Of a stretch of DNA of 64,000 bases, positions 8,182 to 16,270 are shown one piece after another; positions within the stretch are counted from its first letter, which is position 1, and the number at the start of each line of letters is the position of its first letter. The notes under the pieces are model-generated. The model had not been told where the DNA came from, did no database searches, and worked only from the letters and a program-made list of their open reading frames with translations. The DNA is from a virus. Made by a program: the position numbers and the translations under genes. The stretch lies in the IMG/VR virus record IMGVR_UViG_3300018080_000112, positions 32,001 to 96,000 of that record; one strand, given 5' to 3'.

Positions 8182-9645
8182 GAGCTAACAACTCCAAAAA
8201 GACCGCTCTTTTCTCTTCGTTGCTCTTCGTGACCATCATCACGTTATAAAAATACTCGATTTGATCTTCCTCTTTGGGGTCAACTCCGTACCGCGCCGCG
8301 ATCTCAGCATAGACAAACATACCTGTCGGCATCAGCTTGCTCCTTTCTTGAGTTCCAACGCTGATTGAAACCTCGCCATGATTTCCTGGCTTGTTCCAGA
8401 CGATTCCAGACAAACCAGCATAATCTTCGCTTCTGTCAAGTTGCGAACCCGACAGTTGCGACCATCTTCCAAGGTCGCACGACCCACCCGGTTCGATTGC
8501 TTTTCGAAGTGTCCTATCTCACAGGTCCAGAACATACCGGAGACCTTAGTCATCTTGAGTTCTTTCGCCCGGTCCAGAACCTCTTGCGGCGTCAAAGCTG
8601 TCGCAACCATGACGACCTCCTATCTGTTCGGGTAAACAATCCACTTTCGGAGGCGATAGCGAGACCCGCCTTCATAAGACGTAAGGATGAACCATTCGCC
8701 GTCACCGACCTCCGGAATACGATCCGGGTTGTCTTTCAGCCACTGTTTGACGGCTGTGATGTTCTTGAGAATTGTGGTCTCAAGATGTACATCCTTCGAT
8801 GGAAAGCTTGTCTTTCCGCCATTCATAACCTTCATCACAGACTCCTCTTTTTGCAGGTTACAAAGTCGAAGCGGGGAGTTGAACCCCGAAACCAGGACCG
8901 CTTTGGGTACACACATTCCTGACTACGGTTGATCATGCCTTAGCCACCCGGTTAATCGACCGCGAATCTTTCTCCGGGTACGGTCACACACTCCTCTTTG
9001 GAGCGTGCGGTTTATGTGCTGGTTGCTCTTCCGTCTGAGCCATCGACAAAAGTGTTCGTCACGACCATGGCGAGGTCAGAATCTATGATTAAGAGACGAA
9101 CACTGCGATCAATTTATCGAGCTTTCTGGACCCACACAGCGCTGTTGAGCTTGCGAGCCAGTTGCTTTTCCGTCATGGGGCGAAGGTCGCTGGTGCTACC
9201 GACCGCGAACCGAACTCCGCGAGCCGTATCGACCTTGAACAACGTGACCGTCTTGTTGTCTTTGTTGGTCACATCCACGCCGCCCTCTTCGAGCCATGCA
9301 TCCAGAACCTCGCGAGAGTAAGGCTGGCTGTATTCAGCGATCCGCGCCAGATGACCTTCGTGCTCATGTTTCCCGCCTTGTGCGTCATCCCGGCAACAAC
9401 CCGCGAGACCCGCGACCATCAGCCCGTTTGTGCTGACGTAACCAAGTTGGCTGTTACCGATCCGGTCGCGGTATGCGTTGATTTTGATGCCTGTAAGAGC
9501 ACAAACACCATCGTATTTCGCTTCAAAGAAGGTCAGGCTGTAACGGTTGTCTTTTTTGTCCGTAAGGGCTTGCGAGAAACGTTCGATGGTATTCATTGTC
9601 TGGCTCCTTTTGCCGTTCGAGAAAATCAATGCGCTTGAAAAAATG

Positions 9646-12014: not shown

Positions 12015-13330
12015 CGAACACCCCCTGGAACAGAAGCATCTGAGGTGAGAAATATGCTTAGAAGTTTAATGAATTCCAAACTTTGTTCTTCATCCATCAG
12101 GTATGAATCTGGCTTTTCCAGTCCCTTCCACCAAACCAGGATTGTGTAAAGGTCAACATAAGCATCTTTTTCACTGACCTCTTCTGTGGTCTCCGGTTGA
12201 CCTACCACATCCACACGATTTGTTTCTCTACTAGAACGAGCCGAACGAACATCCGACAAAACGATATGTTCCTTCCCTCCCACATCTTTTCTACTAAATG
12301 AAAAAAGTCCCTGTTTCATCTCTCAAAACTCCCAATTGTTAGGTCCTAACTTTTCAAAGCTACGGACGATTACCATTCACTCCTGGACGCTCTCTTTTCG
12401 AGCTTGGAGTGCTTCTTTTTCGACTCCGCCTCTTTCTCTTGCTCCTTTCTCTCCTGGATAGTTACGATCCACTTAGGGCGCTCTTTCATCCAGTCTGTCT
12501 TTGTGTACTTTTCCCACTGATTATTTGTGGGCTGTGTGAAAATCTTCAGATACCACCAGACATAAGACACAGCTAACACATAAATCGAATCATCAACTTC
12601 TTCTCGCTGTCGCCTCAAACACTCCGGGTCCACATCCATGGCACCAGCCAATGTTTCAAGTTCAACACGAACTCCTGGTCTTCTTGAAATTCCAGCTTTG
12701 TGAACTTTATCTCGTATCTGTTCTTTCTCAGCCAACAAGATGGTCTGTACCATCATCAAGAACTGGTTGTAATAATCTGTTGGCGAACTGATATTCATCT
12801 CTCCGCCTTTTCGACTACCCCGCTTTCCAGGTCAACCCAACCAATGAATCCATAACGCCATCCCAACCCAGCCGGAGAATCCGGTATGCGACCCGGCGGC
12901 TCTTTGAATGTATTCTGTGAACCTACGGCAAGGAATTGCATATGACCCACGTTGACCGAATCAAGAGCCATATTTTGATATACAGCCCAACGGGTATCTT
13001 CGTGGTTATACGGCGAGGTTTTCATCTCTTCGAGCGTCTCTGGCTCGACCTGTAGCGTCTTCTCTCCCATCTTATTCTCCCCTGTTACTTCGTTGTTATC
13101 TTTTCCTGAACTTCCTCCCCTTGTCATCCAACCACAACACGGGAAGATTCTCCGGACCCTTGTCCTGAATCATCAGGTCATAATCCGCCGCAAGCGTCAT
13201 CACACCCTCCAGAGTCAACTGAAATGTGTAGATAGAATCTTGCTGGACCGCTCGCGGATGTGGTGGTTTATTCCCCATCCAATGACAAACCTGAAATTTC
13301 ACCATGGCTTTTCCTATCTTAGATTCTCAA

Positions 13331-13541
13331 AGTAAATCCCCATGTATATGGGGAATACTCCAACTCGCTGTCAGAGAAGATCTCCTTGACCGGAATATCC
13401 CCATGTATATGGGGAATACAGCCACAACCGTAAAATGGTGCCAAATAAACATGGAATATCCCCATGTATATGGGGAATACGGTCATCAAGGAGACGAGCG
13501 AAATCGAGCTTGCGGAATATCCCCATGTATATGGGGAATAC
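13331..13541 (-). CRISPR. Mini CRISPR array 1: 4 repeats, 3 spacers, type I-E-like repeat
   Basis: 28-nt repeat GTATTCCCCATATACATGGGGATATTCC (minus strand) at 13514-13541, 13453-13480, 13392-13419 and a degenerate copy at 13331-13358. Three unique 33-nt spacers, 61-bp period. The degenerate copy marks the trailer, so the array reads on the minus strand. Confidence 0.95.
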
Positions 13542-13687
13542 TCTTCTTCTGTTCACCACGCTGTTTCGTATTCCTTTACACATGGATTTTACTGCTTCAC
13601 AGGCTATTGCCGTTAACGGTCTTACATAAGCCTCCACAGTCAGAACCGTCATATTCAGCCGGTTATAGAACTTAATACTCATCTTCT
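13542..13687 (-). ncRNA. TnpB omegaRNA-derived scaffold / tracrRNA-like RNA, copy 1
   Basis: Directly 3' of tnpB. The minus strand reads CTGTGGAGGCT..GTAAGACC..AGCCTGTGAAGCAG, resembling IS605 right-end RNA scaffolds, then an anti-repeat GTAAAATCCATGTGTAAAGGAATAC (13568-13592). Confidence 0.75.
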
Positions 13688-14835
13688 AAAACAGTGACGC
13701 CTTTTTGTTTTAAGATAGACGCCGCTTCTTTCCTTATGTTGATTGCTGCATTGATGTCGCGGTCATGTTTTACACGACAACAAGGACAGGTCCAGTTTCG
13801 AACAGAAAGAGGGAGTTTGTCTAACACCTCGCCGCAAACATAACAAGTTTTGCTGGAAGGAAAAAAACGATCAATTTTCACAAGGTGACCGCCGGTTCTC
13901 TGCATCCGCGTCTCAATTCTAGTTCCAAAAGCGCCCCAACTGGCGTCTGCAATCGCCTTTGACAATTTTCTGTTCTTTTGCATGTTCTTTACTTGCAAGG
14001 TTTCCAATCCCACAGCTTGTACGTCTTTCAATGTTGCTGCAATCATCTGGTGTTGATATGTCTCTCGCTTATTTGCAACCTGTGCTTCTCTCTTTGCGAC
14101 AACAATACGAGCCTTTTCTTGGTTTTTTGACCCCTTCTTCTTTCTGGAGTATTTGCGCTTCTTTCGCCGTAAATTATCTTGCGCTTTCTTCAAGAACTTA
14201 GGATTGTCAACCTTCTCTCCCTCAGACGTAATGAACAAGTGAGTCAAACCAAGGTCAAGACCCACAACATCATCAACTTCCGTTAATTTTTTCGGATACT
14301 TCAAACCATCATCAATCAACAGAGACATGTAATACTTAGCTGTAGAAGCTCTTTTTAGTGTACATGTCTTTATCTTTGCGCCGTCTGGAATATTGCGATA
14401 AACATTTGCCTTTACCCATCCGATCTTTGGAATCCAGACCCGTTTATAATCATCTGATACACGAACACCACAAGGATATCCTGCAGACTGACAATGGTTA
14501 CTTTTTTTCTTGAATTTTGGAAAATTGGCGCGTCCTTCAAAGAAGTTAACAAACGCACGATGGAGATTCATAACAGCCTGATTCATCACATCACGCGGCG
14601 CTTTTCGTAGCCACGGATTCTTTTTAATCAAGTCATTCAACCGCCGCATCATGCTATGTGCGTCTACTTTGACCCGCAAACGAATTTTTTCACCCGTGAA
14701 AGGAGATTCTTTATAGATCATCTTTCGCCATGCCAGCATATTATTAAATACCCAGCGTGACACATCAAAATGGTCCTGGAATTTCAATTTTTGTTCCTCT
14801 GTTGGTTTCAGTGGAACTTTGATTCCATACATCAT
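13672..14835 (-). CDS. tnpB: TnpB-family RNA-guided endonuclease (IS200/IS605 OrfB), CRISPR-associated
   Basis: OrfB N-terminus 'KVPLKPTEEQK..SRWVFN', 'FPKFKKK', RuvC-I 'VGLDLGL', RuvC-II 'GLETLQVKNM', zinc finger CYVC..CPCC, RuvC-III 'HDRDINAAINI'. Start MMYG at 14835 with a GGAGGAG RBS; 387 aa. Confidence 0.95.
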   Translation of the reverse strand: MMYGIKVPLKPTEEQKLKFQDHFDVSRWVFNNMLAWRKMIYKESPFTGEKIRLRVKVDAHSMMRRLNDLIKKNPWLRKAPRDVMNQAVMNLHRAFVNFFEGRANFPKFKKKSNHCQSAGYPCGVRVSDDYKRVWIPKIGWVKANVYRNIPDGAKIKTCTLKRASTAKYYMSLLIDDGLKYPKKLTEVDDVVGLDLGLTHLFITSEGEKVDNPKFLKKAQDNLRRKKRKYSRKKKGSKNQEKARIVVAKREAQVANKRETYQHQMIAATLKDVQAVGLETLQVKNMQKNRKLSKAIADASWGAFGTRIETRMQRTGGHLVKIDRFFPSSKTCYVCGEVLDKLPLSVRNWTCPCCRVKHDRDINAAINIRKEAASILKQKGVTVLEDEY

Positions 14836-14873
14836 AATCTTCGATCTCCTCCGGTTACAAAAGCACATAAAAC

Positions 14874-15084
14874 CTTATATCCCCATGTATATGGGGAATA
14901 CCTCAACCCTTCATCATCTGGGTCAAAGAGTAGGGGAATATCCCCGTGTATATGGGGAATACTCGCCGATTGGCCTGTGTGGTGAAGTCAAGTCGGGAAT
15001 ATCCCCGCGTATATGGGGAATACTTCCTGGTCCACTTTTTGTTCCTCTCGCTGGTCGGAATATCCCCGCGTATATGGGGAATAC
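14874..15084 (-). CRISPR. Mini CRISPR array 2: 4 repeats, 3 spacers
   Basis: Repeats at 15057-15084 and 14996-15023 (GTATTCCCCATATACGCGGGGATATTCC), 14935-14962 (..ATACACGGGG..) and a degenerate copy at 14874-14901. The 33-nt spacers all differ from those of array 1. Confidence 0.95.
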
Positions 15085-15230
15085 TCTTCTTCTGTTCACC
15101 ACGCTGTTTCGTATTCCTTTACACACGGATTTTACTGCTTCACAGGCTATTGCCGTTAACGGTCTTATATAAGCCTCCACAGTCAGAACCGTCATATTCA
15201 GCCGGTTATAGAACTTAATACTCATCTTCT
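15085..15230 (-). ncRNA. TnpB omegaRNA-derived scaffold / tracrRNA-like RNA, copy 2
   Basis: 146-bp direct repeat of 13542-13687 with 2 substitutions. Includes the last tnpB codons (EDEY*) and an anti-repeat at 15111-15135. Confidence 0.75.
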
Positions 15231-16270
15231 TAAACGACCACACCAGGTGCAATACTGTTGACCATACTCACCGGGCGCTCGACTCTTGACCCAACTGTGA
15301 AATCGTCCTGGAACAGGATGGTTCGAACACACCTCGTTATCACAAGGGAAAAAATCATCCACTTTTTCAATTCTTTCCTTCCAGGTCCCATCTGGCTGGA
15401 GTTCCTTGAACACACGCTTTCCTGGCTTGCCTTTAGGTTGTTCAATAGATGCCACCACAGCATCCACAATCTCCGCGTCTTCCATAGGTTCCGTATTCTC
15501 AGCCAGACCAGAAAACGGGTCCGTGTCTCTCGACAAACCGCCGGGTCGGAAATCAAGAGGCATCTGCACCTCTGGCGGCTCGCGGTCTCCAAACAACTCT
15601 CGAATAGGAGCCAGGACCTCGTTAATGTGTGGGCGCACCGCATCTTCCGCTTCACGTAGCACTTGACGCGCCATATCTGCAACTTTCAGGTCCTTGTCTC
15701 CCGGCGGAAACTCACCGCGCCGAGAGAGGCGCTTATAAGCCGCAACAATAGGTTCATCACCGGAAGGGTCTTCTGGTACTTCCCACAACGACAAAGGTCT
15801 CTTAGGAGACTCTGGCGGCTCAATTTTGACCTGTTTCGGTCGTATGAAACGCAGATCAAACTCATCTTTGCCTGTAGAGATCTCATTCATCTCCTTCACC
15901 AGGTCTTCAATCAAAGAACCACTTCTGTTCCGACTCATCTCTCAGGCTCCTTTAGCAATCCAGCGGCTCTTTTGTGAAAAGCAAAACCATTGGCGACTCC
16001 GCTCGCTGTTCTTGCAAAAGCTGATGCAAGACCAGAGCCATAGCACCAGTAAAGACAGGGGGACCAATAAGCTCTCCACACTCATCCACTACATCTTCAC
16101 AAAGCTCATCCAACCGTCGCTGAACACCCTTGATCAATTCTTCAGCTTCGTCCTCTTCCTGGAGTTCTCTCAAGTACACATGAGAAGCACCCAACAACAA
16201 CTTCAAGAGTTCTTGTCCCTCATCCAGGATCTTCTCAATGTCCAGCGCACCGTCATCCAGAGAATACTTG

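What the first reader, a model, noticed from the sequence alone, without database searches (positions are those of the whole stretch)
13568..15135. Anti-repeat co-varies with its own array's repeat
Seen: 26 nt upstream of each first repeat is an anti-repeat (13568-13592 and 15111-15135). Copy 1 RNA GUAAAAUCCAUGUGUAAAGGAAUAC pairs with the repeat GUAUUCC-CCA-UAUACAUGG (7 bp, internal loop, then 9 bp with one G-U). In copy 2 the anti-repeat has CCGUGUGUA and the non-terminal repeats have UAUACACGG or UAUACGCGG, so an A-U pair has become G-C. This is one of only two differences between the 146-bp scaffold copies. The same repeat change puts an A.C mismatch into the repeat's own UCCCCAU/AUGGGGA hairpin, the structure Cas6e would read. 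Inference: selection preserves the tracr:repeat duplex rather than the I-E hairpin, and the first repeat could fold in cis as a natural single guide.
Basis: partly seen in the sequence, partly recalled or inferred. Interest (0 to 1): 0.9.

Follow-up and report, generated by a model that had tools for sequence, protein, structure and literature searches.

The report
Phage TnpB with split guide RNA
A marine phage carries a small transposon-type RNA-guided nuclease (TnpB) whose one-piece guide RNA has been split into a helper scaffold plus two tiny CRISPR arrays.

Summary
On the minus strand there are two near-identical about 150-nt scaffolds (13692-13542 and 15235-15085). Each ends in a 25-nt anti-repeat, 26 nt before a four-repeat array with a 61-nt period. 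The scaffolds flank an intact 387-aa TnpB gene.

A covariance model built only from omegaRNAs of other TnpBs hits both scaffolds (E 8e-12 and 4e-11). It stops exactly where the anti-repeat starts. So the anti-repeat is the 5' arm of omegaRNA "stem 4", repeat nt 1-20 are the 3' arm, and the repeat's last 8 nt are the tail before the guide.

I found a second contact. The hairpin-1 loop GAAUAU is a 6-bp complement of the repeat tail AUAUUC. This matches the omegaRNA pseudoknot, which co-varies in relatives.

The A-U to G-C switch is real. It stabilises the cognate duplex by about 4 kcal/mol, and I estimate its chance probability at about 1%. It is still one event, and metagenome contigs could not phase it.

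Some natural variants have lost tnpB and array 2 by recombination between the scaffolds. No targets, host array or phage cas genes were found.

Verdict: an independently arisen TranC-like TnpB-to-Cas12 intermediate using I-E-like repeats. The scan has noted similar phage loci on other DNA.

The parts
13672..14835 (-). tnpB gene, 387 aa. An in-frame ATG at 14868 would give 398 aa, but the RBS GGAGGAG favours the start at 14835.
   Evidence: Pfam HTH_OrfB_IS605, OrfB_IS605 and Cas12f1-like_TNB. RuvC residues D194/E278/D360 and four zinc-finger Cys are conserved. Full-length match to ISDra2 TnpB structures, E 1e-48. Nearest other proteins are 44-49% identical ordinary TnpBs.
13542..13692 (-). Scaffold 1: omegaRNA-derived tracr-like RNA. 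It overlaps the last ~6 codons of tnpB.
   Evidence: A covariance model built from 22 other TnpB omegaRNA cores hits 13681-13589 at E 8e-12. Scaffold 1 is 98% identical to scaffold 2.
13651..13656 (-). Hairpin-1 loop GAAUAU: the proposed pseudoknot strand, pairing with the repeat tail AUAUUC.
   Evidence: It is a 6-bp Watson-Crick complement of repeat nt 22-27. In relatives the loop co-varies with the tail (permutation p<0.0002). The ISDra2 pseudoknot is described in PMC10097598.
13568..13592 (-). Anti-repeat 1 (GUAAAAUCCAUGUGUAAAGGAAUAC): 5' arm of the split stem 4. The variable base is at 13583 (A in the RNA).
13542..13567 (-). 26-nt linker between the anti-repeat and the first repeat. It takes the place of the stem-4 tetraloop in the cis fold.
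13331..13541 (-). Array 1: four 28-nt repeats (R1 13514-13541, R2 13453-13480, R3 13392-13419, degenerate terminal R4 13331-13358) and three 33-nt spacers.
15085..15235 (-). Scaffold 2: a duplicated copy placed after an unrelated 238-aa ORF. It still carries the last tnpB codons.
   Evidence: Covariance-model hit at 15224-15132, E 4e-11. Alignment.
15194..15199 (-). Hairpin-1 loop GAAUAU of scaffold 2 (pseudoknot strand).
15111..15135 (-). Anti-repeat 2 (…CCGUGUGUA…). The variable base is at 15126 (G in the RNA).
14874..15084 (-). Array 2: R1 15057-15084 and R2 14996-15023 (..ACGCGG), R3 14935-14962 (..ACACGG), terminal R4 14874-14901 (..ACAUGG, degenerate 3' end), and three 33-nt spacers.
15222..15938 (-). 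238-aa ORF of unknown function. Its stop codon lies inside the duplicated scaffold-2 sequence. Context only.

Best explanation
This is a TranC-like system: a TnpB-to-Cas12 intermediate carried by a ~144-kb marine phage.

Components. A catalytically intact IS605-type TnpB (387 aa) has lost its transposon context. Its omegaRNA has been cut open in the terminal helix (stem 4).
- The 5' part survives as a ~125-nt tracr-like scaffold that ends in the anti-repeat.
- The 3' part (3' arm of stem 4, an 8-nt tail, and the guide) is now supplied by each repeat-spacer unit of a mini CRISPR array. The 28-nt repeats have the architecture of type I-E repeats.

Contacts. Scaffold and repeat are held together by two contacts inherited from the omegaRNA:
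- the anti-repeat:repeat duplex (10 bp, an internal loop, then 7 bp), equivalent to stem 4 and to Cas12f R:AR-2;
- a pseudoknot between the hairpin-1 loop GAAUAU and the repeat tail AUAUUC, equivalent to Cas12f R:AR-1.

Guides. Scaffold and array are co-oriented with only 26 nt between them. The first repeat and spacer can therefore fold in cis as a natural single guide. Later units would pair in trans.

History. The scaffold plus first repeat was duplicated upstream of tnpB and seeded a second array. In that copy the leader-proximal repeat changed U->C and then A->G, and the anti-repeat changed A->G. This restored a Watson-Crick pair, which is most simply read as compensatory evolution of stem 4.

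What is shown: the sequence anatomy, the homology of the scaffold to omegaRNA, both complementarities, the intact catalytic residues, and the energy gain.

What is inferred: transcription, processing, TnpB loading, DNA cleavage, spacer uptake by a host I-E Cas1-Cas2, and anti-phage (inter-phage) use.
For: (1) Effector. The gene has Pfam TnpB domains. RuvC D-E-D and the zinc-finger Cys are conserved. It matches ISDra2 TnpB over its full length, E 1e-48.

(2) Scaffold homology. A covariance model built from 22 relatives' omegaRNA cores, with the window excluded, hits both scaffolds at E 8e-12 and 4e-11. The hits end at CAGUAA, directly before the anti-repeat.

(3) Positional equivalence. At that position relatives have stem 4, then an 8-10-nt tail, then the guide. 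In 24 relatives all 8 stem-4 pairs show compensatory changes: 76.9% of cells are paired against 54.8% when shuffled, 0 of 500 shuffles as high.

(4) Anti-repeat specificity. Only the two anti-repeats reach 16/16 pairs in 128 kb of sequence. The cis hairpin is both MFE and centroid, z = -2.4 and -2.0.

(5) Pseudoknot.
- In ISDra2, tail positions -5..-3 pair with -103..-105 (PMC10097598).
- In relatives the loop and tail co-vary: GGAAC with GUUC, GGAAU with AUUC, GGAAA with UUUC, GGACU with AGUC. The cognate Watson-Crick run averages 2.97 against 2.28 permuted, p<0.0002.
- The window's loop GAAUAU matches its repeat tail AUAUUC over 6 bp in the same register.

(6) Cognate energies in kcal/mol: anti-G x c2R1 -23.0 and x c2R3 -23.4; anti-A x c2R1 -19.1; anti-A x c1 -22.0; anti-G x c1 -21.6.

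(7) Strand. Both non-Watson-Crick positions of the duplex are G-U on the minus-strand RNA. On the other strand they would be A-C.

(8) Independent analogue. L061 is a 42%-identical TnpB with a downstream 61-nt-period array. Its loop AACA matches the tail UGUU, and its arm CC..GCGUG matches CACGC..GG, with quite different sequences.

(9) The kind is published: TranC (Jin et al., Cell 2025, cited in PMC13565253) and the phage-borne TnpB-sized CauTranC9 (bioRxiv 10.64898/2026.03.27.714800).
Against: There are no expression or processing data.

No protospacer was found, so there is no TAM/PAM and no proof that the spacers are used.

The compensatory change is a single event.

By duplex energy alone the anti-repeat is unremarkable.

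The repeat's own hairpin plus the 8-nt tail could also mimic stem 4 plus tail. The extended duplex is therefore favoured, not proven.

Natural variants have deleted tnpB and array 2 while keeping scaffold and array 1. This is the only form seen in run X4 and is mixed with the full form in X2. The nuclease is therefore dispensable for phage persistence.

The 61-nt period and the I-E-like repeat would also fit use by a host Cascade.
Confidence: 0.65

Rival explanations
1. The arrays are host-dependent type I-E mini-arrays. The phage borrows the host's Cas6e/Cascade (and Cas1-Cas2) to target competitors or to interfere with host immunity. TnpB is a neighbouring relic, the scaffold merely serves as a leader, and the anti-repeat has no RNA function.
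For: The repeat has I-E architecture (TTCCCC-N8-GGGGATA..CC; compare the enterobacterial repeat string found), and the 28+33 = 61-nt period matches I-E. Repeat variants are polarised in array 2, as expected from leader-proximal acquisition. Variants lacking tnpB but keeping scaffold and array 1 exist. The phage record has no cas1 or cas6e.
Against: The 'leader' is a full omegaRNA core by covariance model. Both omegaRNA contacts to the guide-proximal part are complementary to this repeat, at the right positions and in the right register. The scaffold was duplicated together with the repeat. The derived repeats weaken the Cas6e-type hairpin while the anti-repeat compensates. No host array with this repeat was found in 185,579 species genomes or in IMG/VR.
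Confidence: 0.12
2. The system may well be TranC-like, but the A-U to G-C 'co-variation' is not a product of selection. It could be chance. It could also be a templated mutation: anti-repeat and first repeat form a quasi-palindrome 26 nt apart, so intramolecular template switching or short-patch conversion could copy the repeat change into the anti-repeat.
For: There is only one compensated pair. My own calculation puts chance near 1%: two scaffold differences in 146 nt and two partner positions give P = 0.027, multiplied by 0.33-0.5 for the right base. Quasi-palindrome correction is an established mutational route (general knowledge). All four metagenome runs yield a scaffold with the A-type base at site A combined with cassette 2's base at site B. 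That is compatible with an ancestor in which C-type repeats coexisted with an A-type anti-repeat.
Against: The adjacent position stays U opposite G in R1 and R2. At DNA level that is a mismatch and a templated patch would tend to correct it, while at RNA level it is a tolerated wobble. Both non-Watson-Crick positions are G-U only on the transcribed strand. The change lies in a helix that co-varies across the whole family. The energy gain is about 4 kcal/mol.
Confidence: 0.25
3. The locus is a decaying remnant. TnpB and its RNA parts are no longer used, and the direct repeats simply promote deletions.
For: The deletion form is seen in two studies. No targets were found. No TnpA or transposon ends are present.
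Against: The ORF is intact with all catalytic residues. The two scaffolds are 98% identical. Pseudoknot and stem-4 complementarity are kept. Array 2 has grown by ordered acquisitions. The same sequence was recovered in an independent assembly (L009, 99.97% identical).
Confidence: 0.08

Closest known systems
TranC systems (transposon-CRISPR intermediates). Source: Jin et al., Cell 2025;188:6283, known to me through PMC13565253 and bioRxiv 10.1101/2025.09.28.678669. LaTranC structures are PDB 9jfo and 9jfq.
   Same: A TnpB-derived nuclease sits next to a CRISPR array. The transposon right-end/omegaRNA is functionally split into a tracrRNA and crRNAs. Such systems arose independently several times.
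   Different: This protein is not close to LaTranC: only the C-terminal third aligns, E 2e-29. Its nearest relatives are ordinary TnpBs at 49% identity or less. The repeats are I-E-like, 28 nt with 33-nt spacers. There are two tracr+array cassettes flanking the gene. Assignment to a published clade was not tested.
CauTranC9, a TranC clade 9 member in a Caudoviricetes genome (bioRxiv 10.64898/2026.03.27.714800)
   Same: It is phage-borne, TnpB-sized (about 414 aa) without REC/WED expansions, lacks the ISDra2-type C-terminal domain, and has a short array.
   Different: CauTranC9 has 38-bp repeats, and its native spacers match phages. Here the repeats are 28 nt and I-E-like, and no targets were found. 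The two proteins were not compared.
ISDra2 TnpB-omegaRNA (PDB 8exa, 8h1j; Nakagawa et al. 2023, PMC10097598)
   Same: The protein is similar over its full length (E 1e-48). The RNA has the same layout: pseudoknot between the 5' region and tail -5..-3, stem 4 next to the tail, and a 3' guide.
   Different: In ISDra2 the RNA is one piece closed by a UUUA tetraloop and carries a single guide defined by the transposon end. Here stem 4 is opened and lengthened, and its 3' arm, tail and guide are supplied by CRISPR repeat-spacer units. There is no TnpA and there are no transposon ends.
Cas12f (type V-F) tracrRNA:crRNA
   Same: There are two repeat:anti-repeat contacts, R:AR-1 (the pseudoknot) and R:AR-2 (the stem next to it), as stated in PMC10097598.
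   Different: Cas12f proteins are only marginally similar (E 1e-4 to 1e-3). They have expanded REC/WED domains and work as dimers. Cas12f repeats are not I-E-like.
Phage-encoded mini-arrays / solitary repeat units that exploit host CRISPR-Cas (general knowledge)
   Same: A short array with host-type repeats sits in a phage that has no cas adaptation genes.
   Different: Here the array is physically and structurally coupled to a TnpB guide scaffold.

Membership tests
TranC / tracr-dependent TnpB-derived type V-like system | TnpB/Cas12-type effector with an intact RuvC catalytic triad | tested here: met
   Pfam domains. D194/E278/D360 and four Cys conserved. ISDra2 TnpB E 1e-48.
TranC / tracr-dependent TnpB-derived type V-like system | CRISPR array next to the effector | tested here: met
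   Two 4-repeat arrays with a 61-nt period lie directly up- and downstream of the gene.
TranC / tracr-dependent TnpB-derived type V-like system | tracrRNA derived from the reRNA/omegaRNA, with an anti-repeat complementary to the repeat | tested here: met
   The covariance model of relatives' omegaRNA hits both scaffolds. The anti-repeat reaches 16/16 pairs and is unique in the window. Pseudoknot complementarity spans 6 bp.
TranC / tracr-dependent TnpB-derived type V-like system | crRNA- and tracrRNA-dependent DNA targeting | not testable with these tools
   No RNA runs hold the locus and no protospacers were found.
TranC / tracr-dependent TnpB-derived type V-like system | Placement in a published TranC clade | tested here: inconclusive
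   Only LaTranC was available for comparison, and it gives a partial C-terminal match.
IS200/IS605 TnpB-omegaRNA transposon | One-piece omegaRNA ending in a single guide at the transposon right end | tested here: not met
   Relatives have stem 4, tail and guide in one piece. Here the 3' arm, tail and guide are replaced by repeat-spacer units.
IS200/IS605 TnpB-omegaRNA transposon | TnpA (Y1) transposase or a mobile-element context | tested here: not met
   No PF01797 match in the 144-kb record. There is a single tnpB copy.
Type I-E CRISPR array | 28-29-nt repeat with a CCCC-N8-GGGG hairpin and an AUA..CC 3' handle; 32-33-nt spacers | tested here: met
   Repeat GTATTCCCCATATACATGGGGATATTCC with a 61-nt period. 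It shares its architecture with the enterobacterial repeat string retrieved. The subtype label rests on my own knowledge.
Type I-E CRISPR array | Cognate cas genes (cas1, cas6e ...) in the genome | tested here: not met
   No PF01867 or PF08798 match in the phage record, which is 89% complete. The host is unknown, and no matching host array was found.
Type I-E CRISPR array | Ordinary leader upstream of the first repeat | tested here: not met
   The upstream 150 nt are an omegaRNA core.
Cas12f (type V-F) | Cas12f-type protein with expanded REC/WED domains | tested here: not met
   Cas12f structures match only marginally (E 1e-4 to 1e-3), against 1e-48 for TnpB. The length of 387 aa equals that of TnpB.

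The most novel reading that the evidence does not exclude
The arrays are dual-use hybrids. A phage TnpB has captured a host type I-E array so that the host's Cas1-Cas2 keeps feeding it spacers, as the polarised repeat history and 33-nt spacers suggest, while the phage nuclease reads the transcripts through an omegaRNA-derived scaffold. Cassette 2 would then be caught in the act of drifting away from Cas6e/Cascade recognition towards TnpB-only use. That would be a live example of how a class 1 array is handed over to a nascent class 2 effector.
Probability: 0.15. Interest if true: 0.75.

Novelty: new member of a known kind. Interest (0 to 1): 0.45.

Why it matters
The locus is a very clean natural snapshot of the omegaRNA-to-tracrRNA/crRNA split. 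The effector is still an unexpanded 387-aa TnpB, and its closest relatives are ordinary transposon copies. The split point can be mapped to the nucleotide against those relatives, and both RNA-RNA contacts (pseudoknot and stem 4) are identifiable.

The twin cassettes provide a built-in natural experiment: matched versus mismatched anti-repeat/repeat pairs. That could be used to measure how much stem-4 pairing matters.

The I-E-like repeats raise the testable idea that nascent type V systems start by borrowing arrays and adaptation from class 1 systems.

In practice it is a very compact candidate editor with a short scaffold of about 125 nt.

It does not change the current picture, because TranC systems, including a phage-borne TnpB-sized one, are already published.

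Tried and rejected
Protospacers:
- No credible match in GenBank phages (only E ~3-9 noise).
- None in PLSDB plasmids.
- None elsewhere in the phage's own genome.
- Exact 20-mers of five of the six spacers gave no match in IMG/VR.
- So no TAM/PAM could be derived.

Host array. The pattern GTATTCCCC-N8-GGGGATATTCC gave 0 hits in IMG/VR and one non-array chance hit (an Alteromonas genome) in the species genomes.

Close homologous cassettes for a true covariation test. None exist in the collections searched. The nearest protein other than the same phage is 49% identical. The search for related loci with the single protein found nothing in IMG/VR. Of 160 TnpB-relative loci, only L061 has a downstream array.

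Rfam. No family matched at gathering or at E<=10, apart from noise.

Promoter/terminator scan. Nothing informative.

Whole-scaffold folds (220 nt). z-scores of -0.7 and -1.2 are not significant.

RNAduplex energy ranking. It is not discriminating, because G/C-rich windows score higher.

RNA evidence. No RNA holder was listed among public runs.

Population phasing.
- The C>T at 15126 seen in X1 and X3 contigs cannot be assigned to cassette 2. The scaffold is a collapsed repeat, and the two variable sites are 42 nt apart, which is more than the word length.
- X3 shows no cover of array 1. This is not interpretable.

L061 anti-repeat energy is no better than shuffles. Only its positional pairing was used.

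The arrays upstream of tnpB in L054, L068, L130 and L133 are not split-guide cases, because their omegaRNA is intact.

The genome search 'relatives' is not available for virus records.
Full report
ANATOMY

The window is part of a 143,941-bp IMG/VR virus record, estimated 89% complete. It is found in marine sediment and seawater metagenomes from five studies.

All parts lie on the minus strand, in this order:
- a 238-aa ORF of unknown function (15938->15222);
- scaffold 2 (15235->15085);
- array 2, with four repeats and three 33-nt spacers (15084->14874);
- tnpB, with an RBS and a start at 14835, ending at 13672 (387 aa);
- scaffold 1 (13692->13542), which overlaps the last ~6 codons of tnpB;
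- array 1 (13541->13331).

The 28-nt repeat is GTATTCCCCATATACATGGGGATATTCC, with a 61-nt period. The last repeat of each array is degenerate at its 3' end. That fixes the orientation: the scaffold is on the leader side.

Scaffold 2 still carries the last tnpB codons behind an unrelated ORF. Cassette 2 was therefore copied from cassette 1.

An independent ENA assembly (L009) is 99.97% identical and has the same variable bases.

THE OBSERVATION

In a scan of both strands for the two-helix geometry, only the two anti-repeats reach 16/16 pairs outside the arrays themselves. The background maximum is 14/16. Duplex energy alone does not single them out.

WHAT THE SCAFFOLD IS

The gene is a bona fide TnpB:
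- it carries the Pfam OrfB_IS605, TNB and HTH domains;
- the RuvC D-E-D triad and the zinc-finger cysteines are conserved;
- it aligns over its full length to ISDra2 TnpB structures at E 1e-48, while LaTranC aligns only in the C-terminal third.

Apart from the same phage, the nearest proteins among 5.8 billion are 44-49% identical ordinary TnpBs.

I fetched loci of such relatives. Their 3' regions share one omegaRNA layout:
- hairpin 1;
- CUGUGGAG..GUAAG-hairpin..GAAGCAGGAA;
- a terminal hairpin (stem 4, usually closed by a UUUA-type tetraloop);
- an 8-10-nt tail ending in UCAC or UCAA;
- then the guide.

A covariance model built from 22 of these cores, without the window, hits the window only at the two scaffolds with a significant E-value (E 8e-12 and 4e-11). 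Both hits end at ...GAAGCAGUAA, immediately before the anti-repeat.

So the anti-repeat occupies the 5' arm of stem 4. Repeat nt 1-20 are the 3' arm. Repeat nt 21/22-28, plus the variable 29th base, form the tail.

Stem 4 is a selected helix in this family. In 24 relatives all 8 pairs show double changes. 76.9% of cells are paired against 54.8% in shuffles (0 of 500 shuffles as high), and the covariation score is 0.53 against 0.19.

A SECOND CONTACT

Nakagawa et al. (PMC10097598) show several points for ISDra2:
- tail nucleotides -5..-3 pair with -103..-105 to form a pseudoknot;
- the pseudoknot and stem 4 correspond to Cas12f R:AR-1 and R:AR-2;
- the omegaRNA is a natural sgRNA closed by a tetraloop.

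In the relatives collected here, the hairpin-1 loop co-varies with the tail. GGAAC goes with GUUC, GGAAU with AUUC, GGAAA with UUUC, and GGACU or GGGCU with AGUC. Cognate pairs have longer Watson-Crick runs than permuted pairs (2.97 against 2.28; p<0.0002; 37 distinct pairs). Relatedness inflates such tests, but the pattern is plain to the eye.

The window's hairpin-1 loop is GAAUAU (13656-13651 and 15199-15194). It is a 6-bp Watson-Crick complement of the repeat tail AUAUUC. If the 29th base is counted as -1, UUC falls at -5..-3, as in relatives that end in UUCAC.

Both RNA-RNA contacts that tie the crRNA-like end to the rest of an omegaRNA are therefore kept with this repeat. This is the strongest argument that the repeat-spacer units are read by TnpB through the scaffold.

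THE CO-VARIATION ITSELF

The polarity of array 2 is R4 AU, R3 AC, R2 and R1 GC. This fits successive changes in the leader-proximal repeat, each copied at the next spacer uptake (an inference from how I-E-type acquisition duplicates the first repeat). AU is thus ancestral and matches cassette 1.

Cofold energies in kcal/mol:

| Anti-repeat | Repeat | Energy |
|---|---|---|
| A | cassette 1 | -22.0 |
| A | cassette 2 R1 | -19.1 |
| A | cassette 2 R3 | -19.5 |
| G | cassette 2 R1 | -23.0 |
| G | cassette 2 R3 | -23.4 |
| G | cassette 1 | -21.6 |

The G anti-repeat therefore costs little with U repeats and rescues about 4 kcal/mol with C repeats.

My estimate of the chance probability runs as follows. 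There are two scaffold differences in 146 nt and two partner positions. This gives 1-(144x143)/(146x145) = 0.027 for position, times roughly 0.33-0.5 for the right base. The result is about 0.01.

Both non-Watson-Crick positions are G-U on the minus-strand RNA, which agrees with the transcribed strand.

Caveats:
- it is one event;
- anti-repeat and R1 form a quasi-palindrome, so a templated mutation could mimic compensation;
- the repeat's own hairpin is weakened (-10.5 to -8.6), not destroyed;
- the own-hairpin conformer would leave an 8-nt tail that also fits the family geometry.

I favour the long duplex for two reasons. Its 5' arm starts 2-3 nt after the conserved GUAA, as stem 4 does in relatives. 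The compensated position also lies in that arm.

POPULATION DATA

Contigs of four runs were laid on the locus.

X4 (the only form there) and X2 (mixed with the full form) contain a precise 1,543-bp deletion joining 13583 to 15127. This is recombination between the two 180-bp direct repeats. It removes tnpB and array 2 and leaves one scaffold (A-type anti-repeat) with array 1.

The C>T at 15126 reported for X1 and X3 cannot be assigned to cassette 2. The scaffold is a collapsed repeat in these word-based contigs, and the two variable sites are 42 nt apart.

The data therefore neither confirm nor break the linkage. They do show that the twin-cassette layout is unstable and that tnpB-less variants circulate.

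CONTEXT AND ORIGIN OF THE ARRAY

The phage record has no Cas1, no Cas6e, no TnpA, and only one tnpB. Neighbouring ORFs are uncharacterised.

The repeat shares the TTCCCC-N8-GGGGATA..CC architecture and the 61-nt period of enterobacterial I-E arrays (plus my own knowledge). No host array with this repeat was found.

Spacer uptake by a host I-E Cas1-Cas2 is thus an inference.

No protospacers were found.

AN INDEPENDENT ANALOGUE

Among the 160 relative loci from the two collection scans, one (L061, a metagenome contig) has a downstream 61-nt-period mini-array. Its TnpB is 42% identical.

There the hairpin-1 loop AAACA matches the repeat tail UGUU at -6..-3. The arm CC-AC-GCGUG matches CACGC-AG-GG. 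The first 'repeat' is repeat-like only in its 3' half, that is, in the omegaRNA-derived part.

The sequences are different and the architecture is the same. This is cross-locus support for the model, but weak on its own.

COMPARISON WITH THE KNOWN

TranC systems are TnpB-to-Cas12 intermediates created by splitting the reRNA into tracrRNA and crRNA. They arose many times (Jin et al., Cell 2025, via PMC13565253 and bioRxiv 10.1101/2025.09.28.678669). A TnpB-sized, phage-borne member (CauTranC9) has been reported (bioRxiv 10.64898/2026.03.27.714800).

The present locus meets the computable defining features and is best filed as a new, independently derived member.

Its particular points are:
- I-E-like palindromic repeats;
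- two tracr+array cassettes flanking the gene;
- a nucleotide-level map of the split;
- a retained and extended pseudoknot;
- one compensatory switch;
- near-complete uncoupling of the coding sequence from the scaffold, since relatives' ORFs run through the omegaRNA as far as the stem-4 loop.

Earlier notes of this scan describe similar phage loci on other DNA.

VERDICT

This is a new member of a known kind, of moderate interest.

Noticed in passing
window 13583 joined to 15127 (runs X2, X4): Natural deletion variant. A precise 1,543-bp loss of tnpB plus array 2, by recombination between the two 180-bp scaffold+R1 direct repeats. It is the only form in one sediment metagenome and is mixed with the full form in another.
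   Followed up: partly
L061:917-1211 (metagenome contig Ga0265293_10129333): A second, unrelated-lineage TnpB (42% identical) with an omegaRNA core followed by a 61-nt-period mini-array (repeat GTTGTTCCCACGCACGCAGGGATGTTGC). The first repeat is repeat-like only in its 3' half. The loop AAACA is complementary to the tail UGUU. A tRNA-like gene follows the array.
   Followed up: partly
L054:1193-1448, L068:30-213, L130 and L133 (same repeat family): TnpB relatives with 36-39-nt repeats at a 72-nt period lying directly UPSTREAM of tnpB, while their downstream omegaRNA (stem 4 + tail UAGUUCAAC) is intact. The purpose of these arrays is unknown.
   Followed up: partly
window 13672-13692 versus relatives L010, L027, L029: The window's tnpB ORF stops about 25 codons earlier than in relatives, whose ORFs run through hairpin 1 and the omegaRNA core into the stem-4 loop. 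Here protein coding and scaffold RNA are almost fully uncoupled.
   Followed up: partly
window 9370-9435 (-): Weak third hit of the omegaRNA-core covariance model (14.1 bits, E 0.016, GC 0.65). Probably spurious.
   Followed up: no
window 13250-13663 in run X3: A seawater run covers tnpB and array 2 but not array 1. It may carry different spacers there, or coverage may simply be low.
   Followed up: no
same genome, outside and inside the window (earlier notes e1-5878558, e1-5878575): Other readers noted an IscB, an orphan omegaRNA and many short TCAAGGCTGTTGA-box arrays in this phage. If real, the phage carries more than one RNA-guided system.
   Followed up: no
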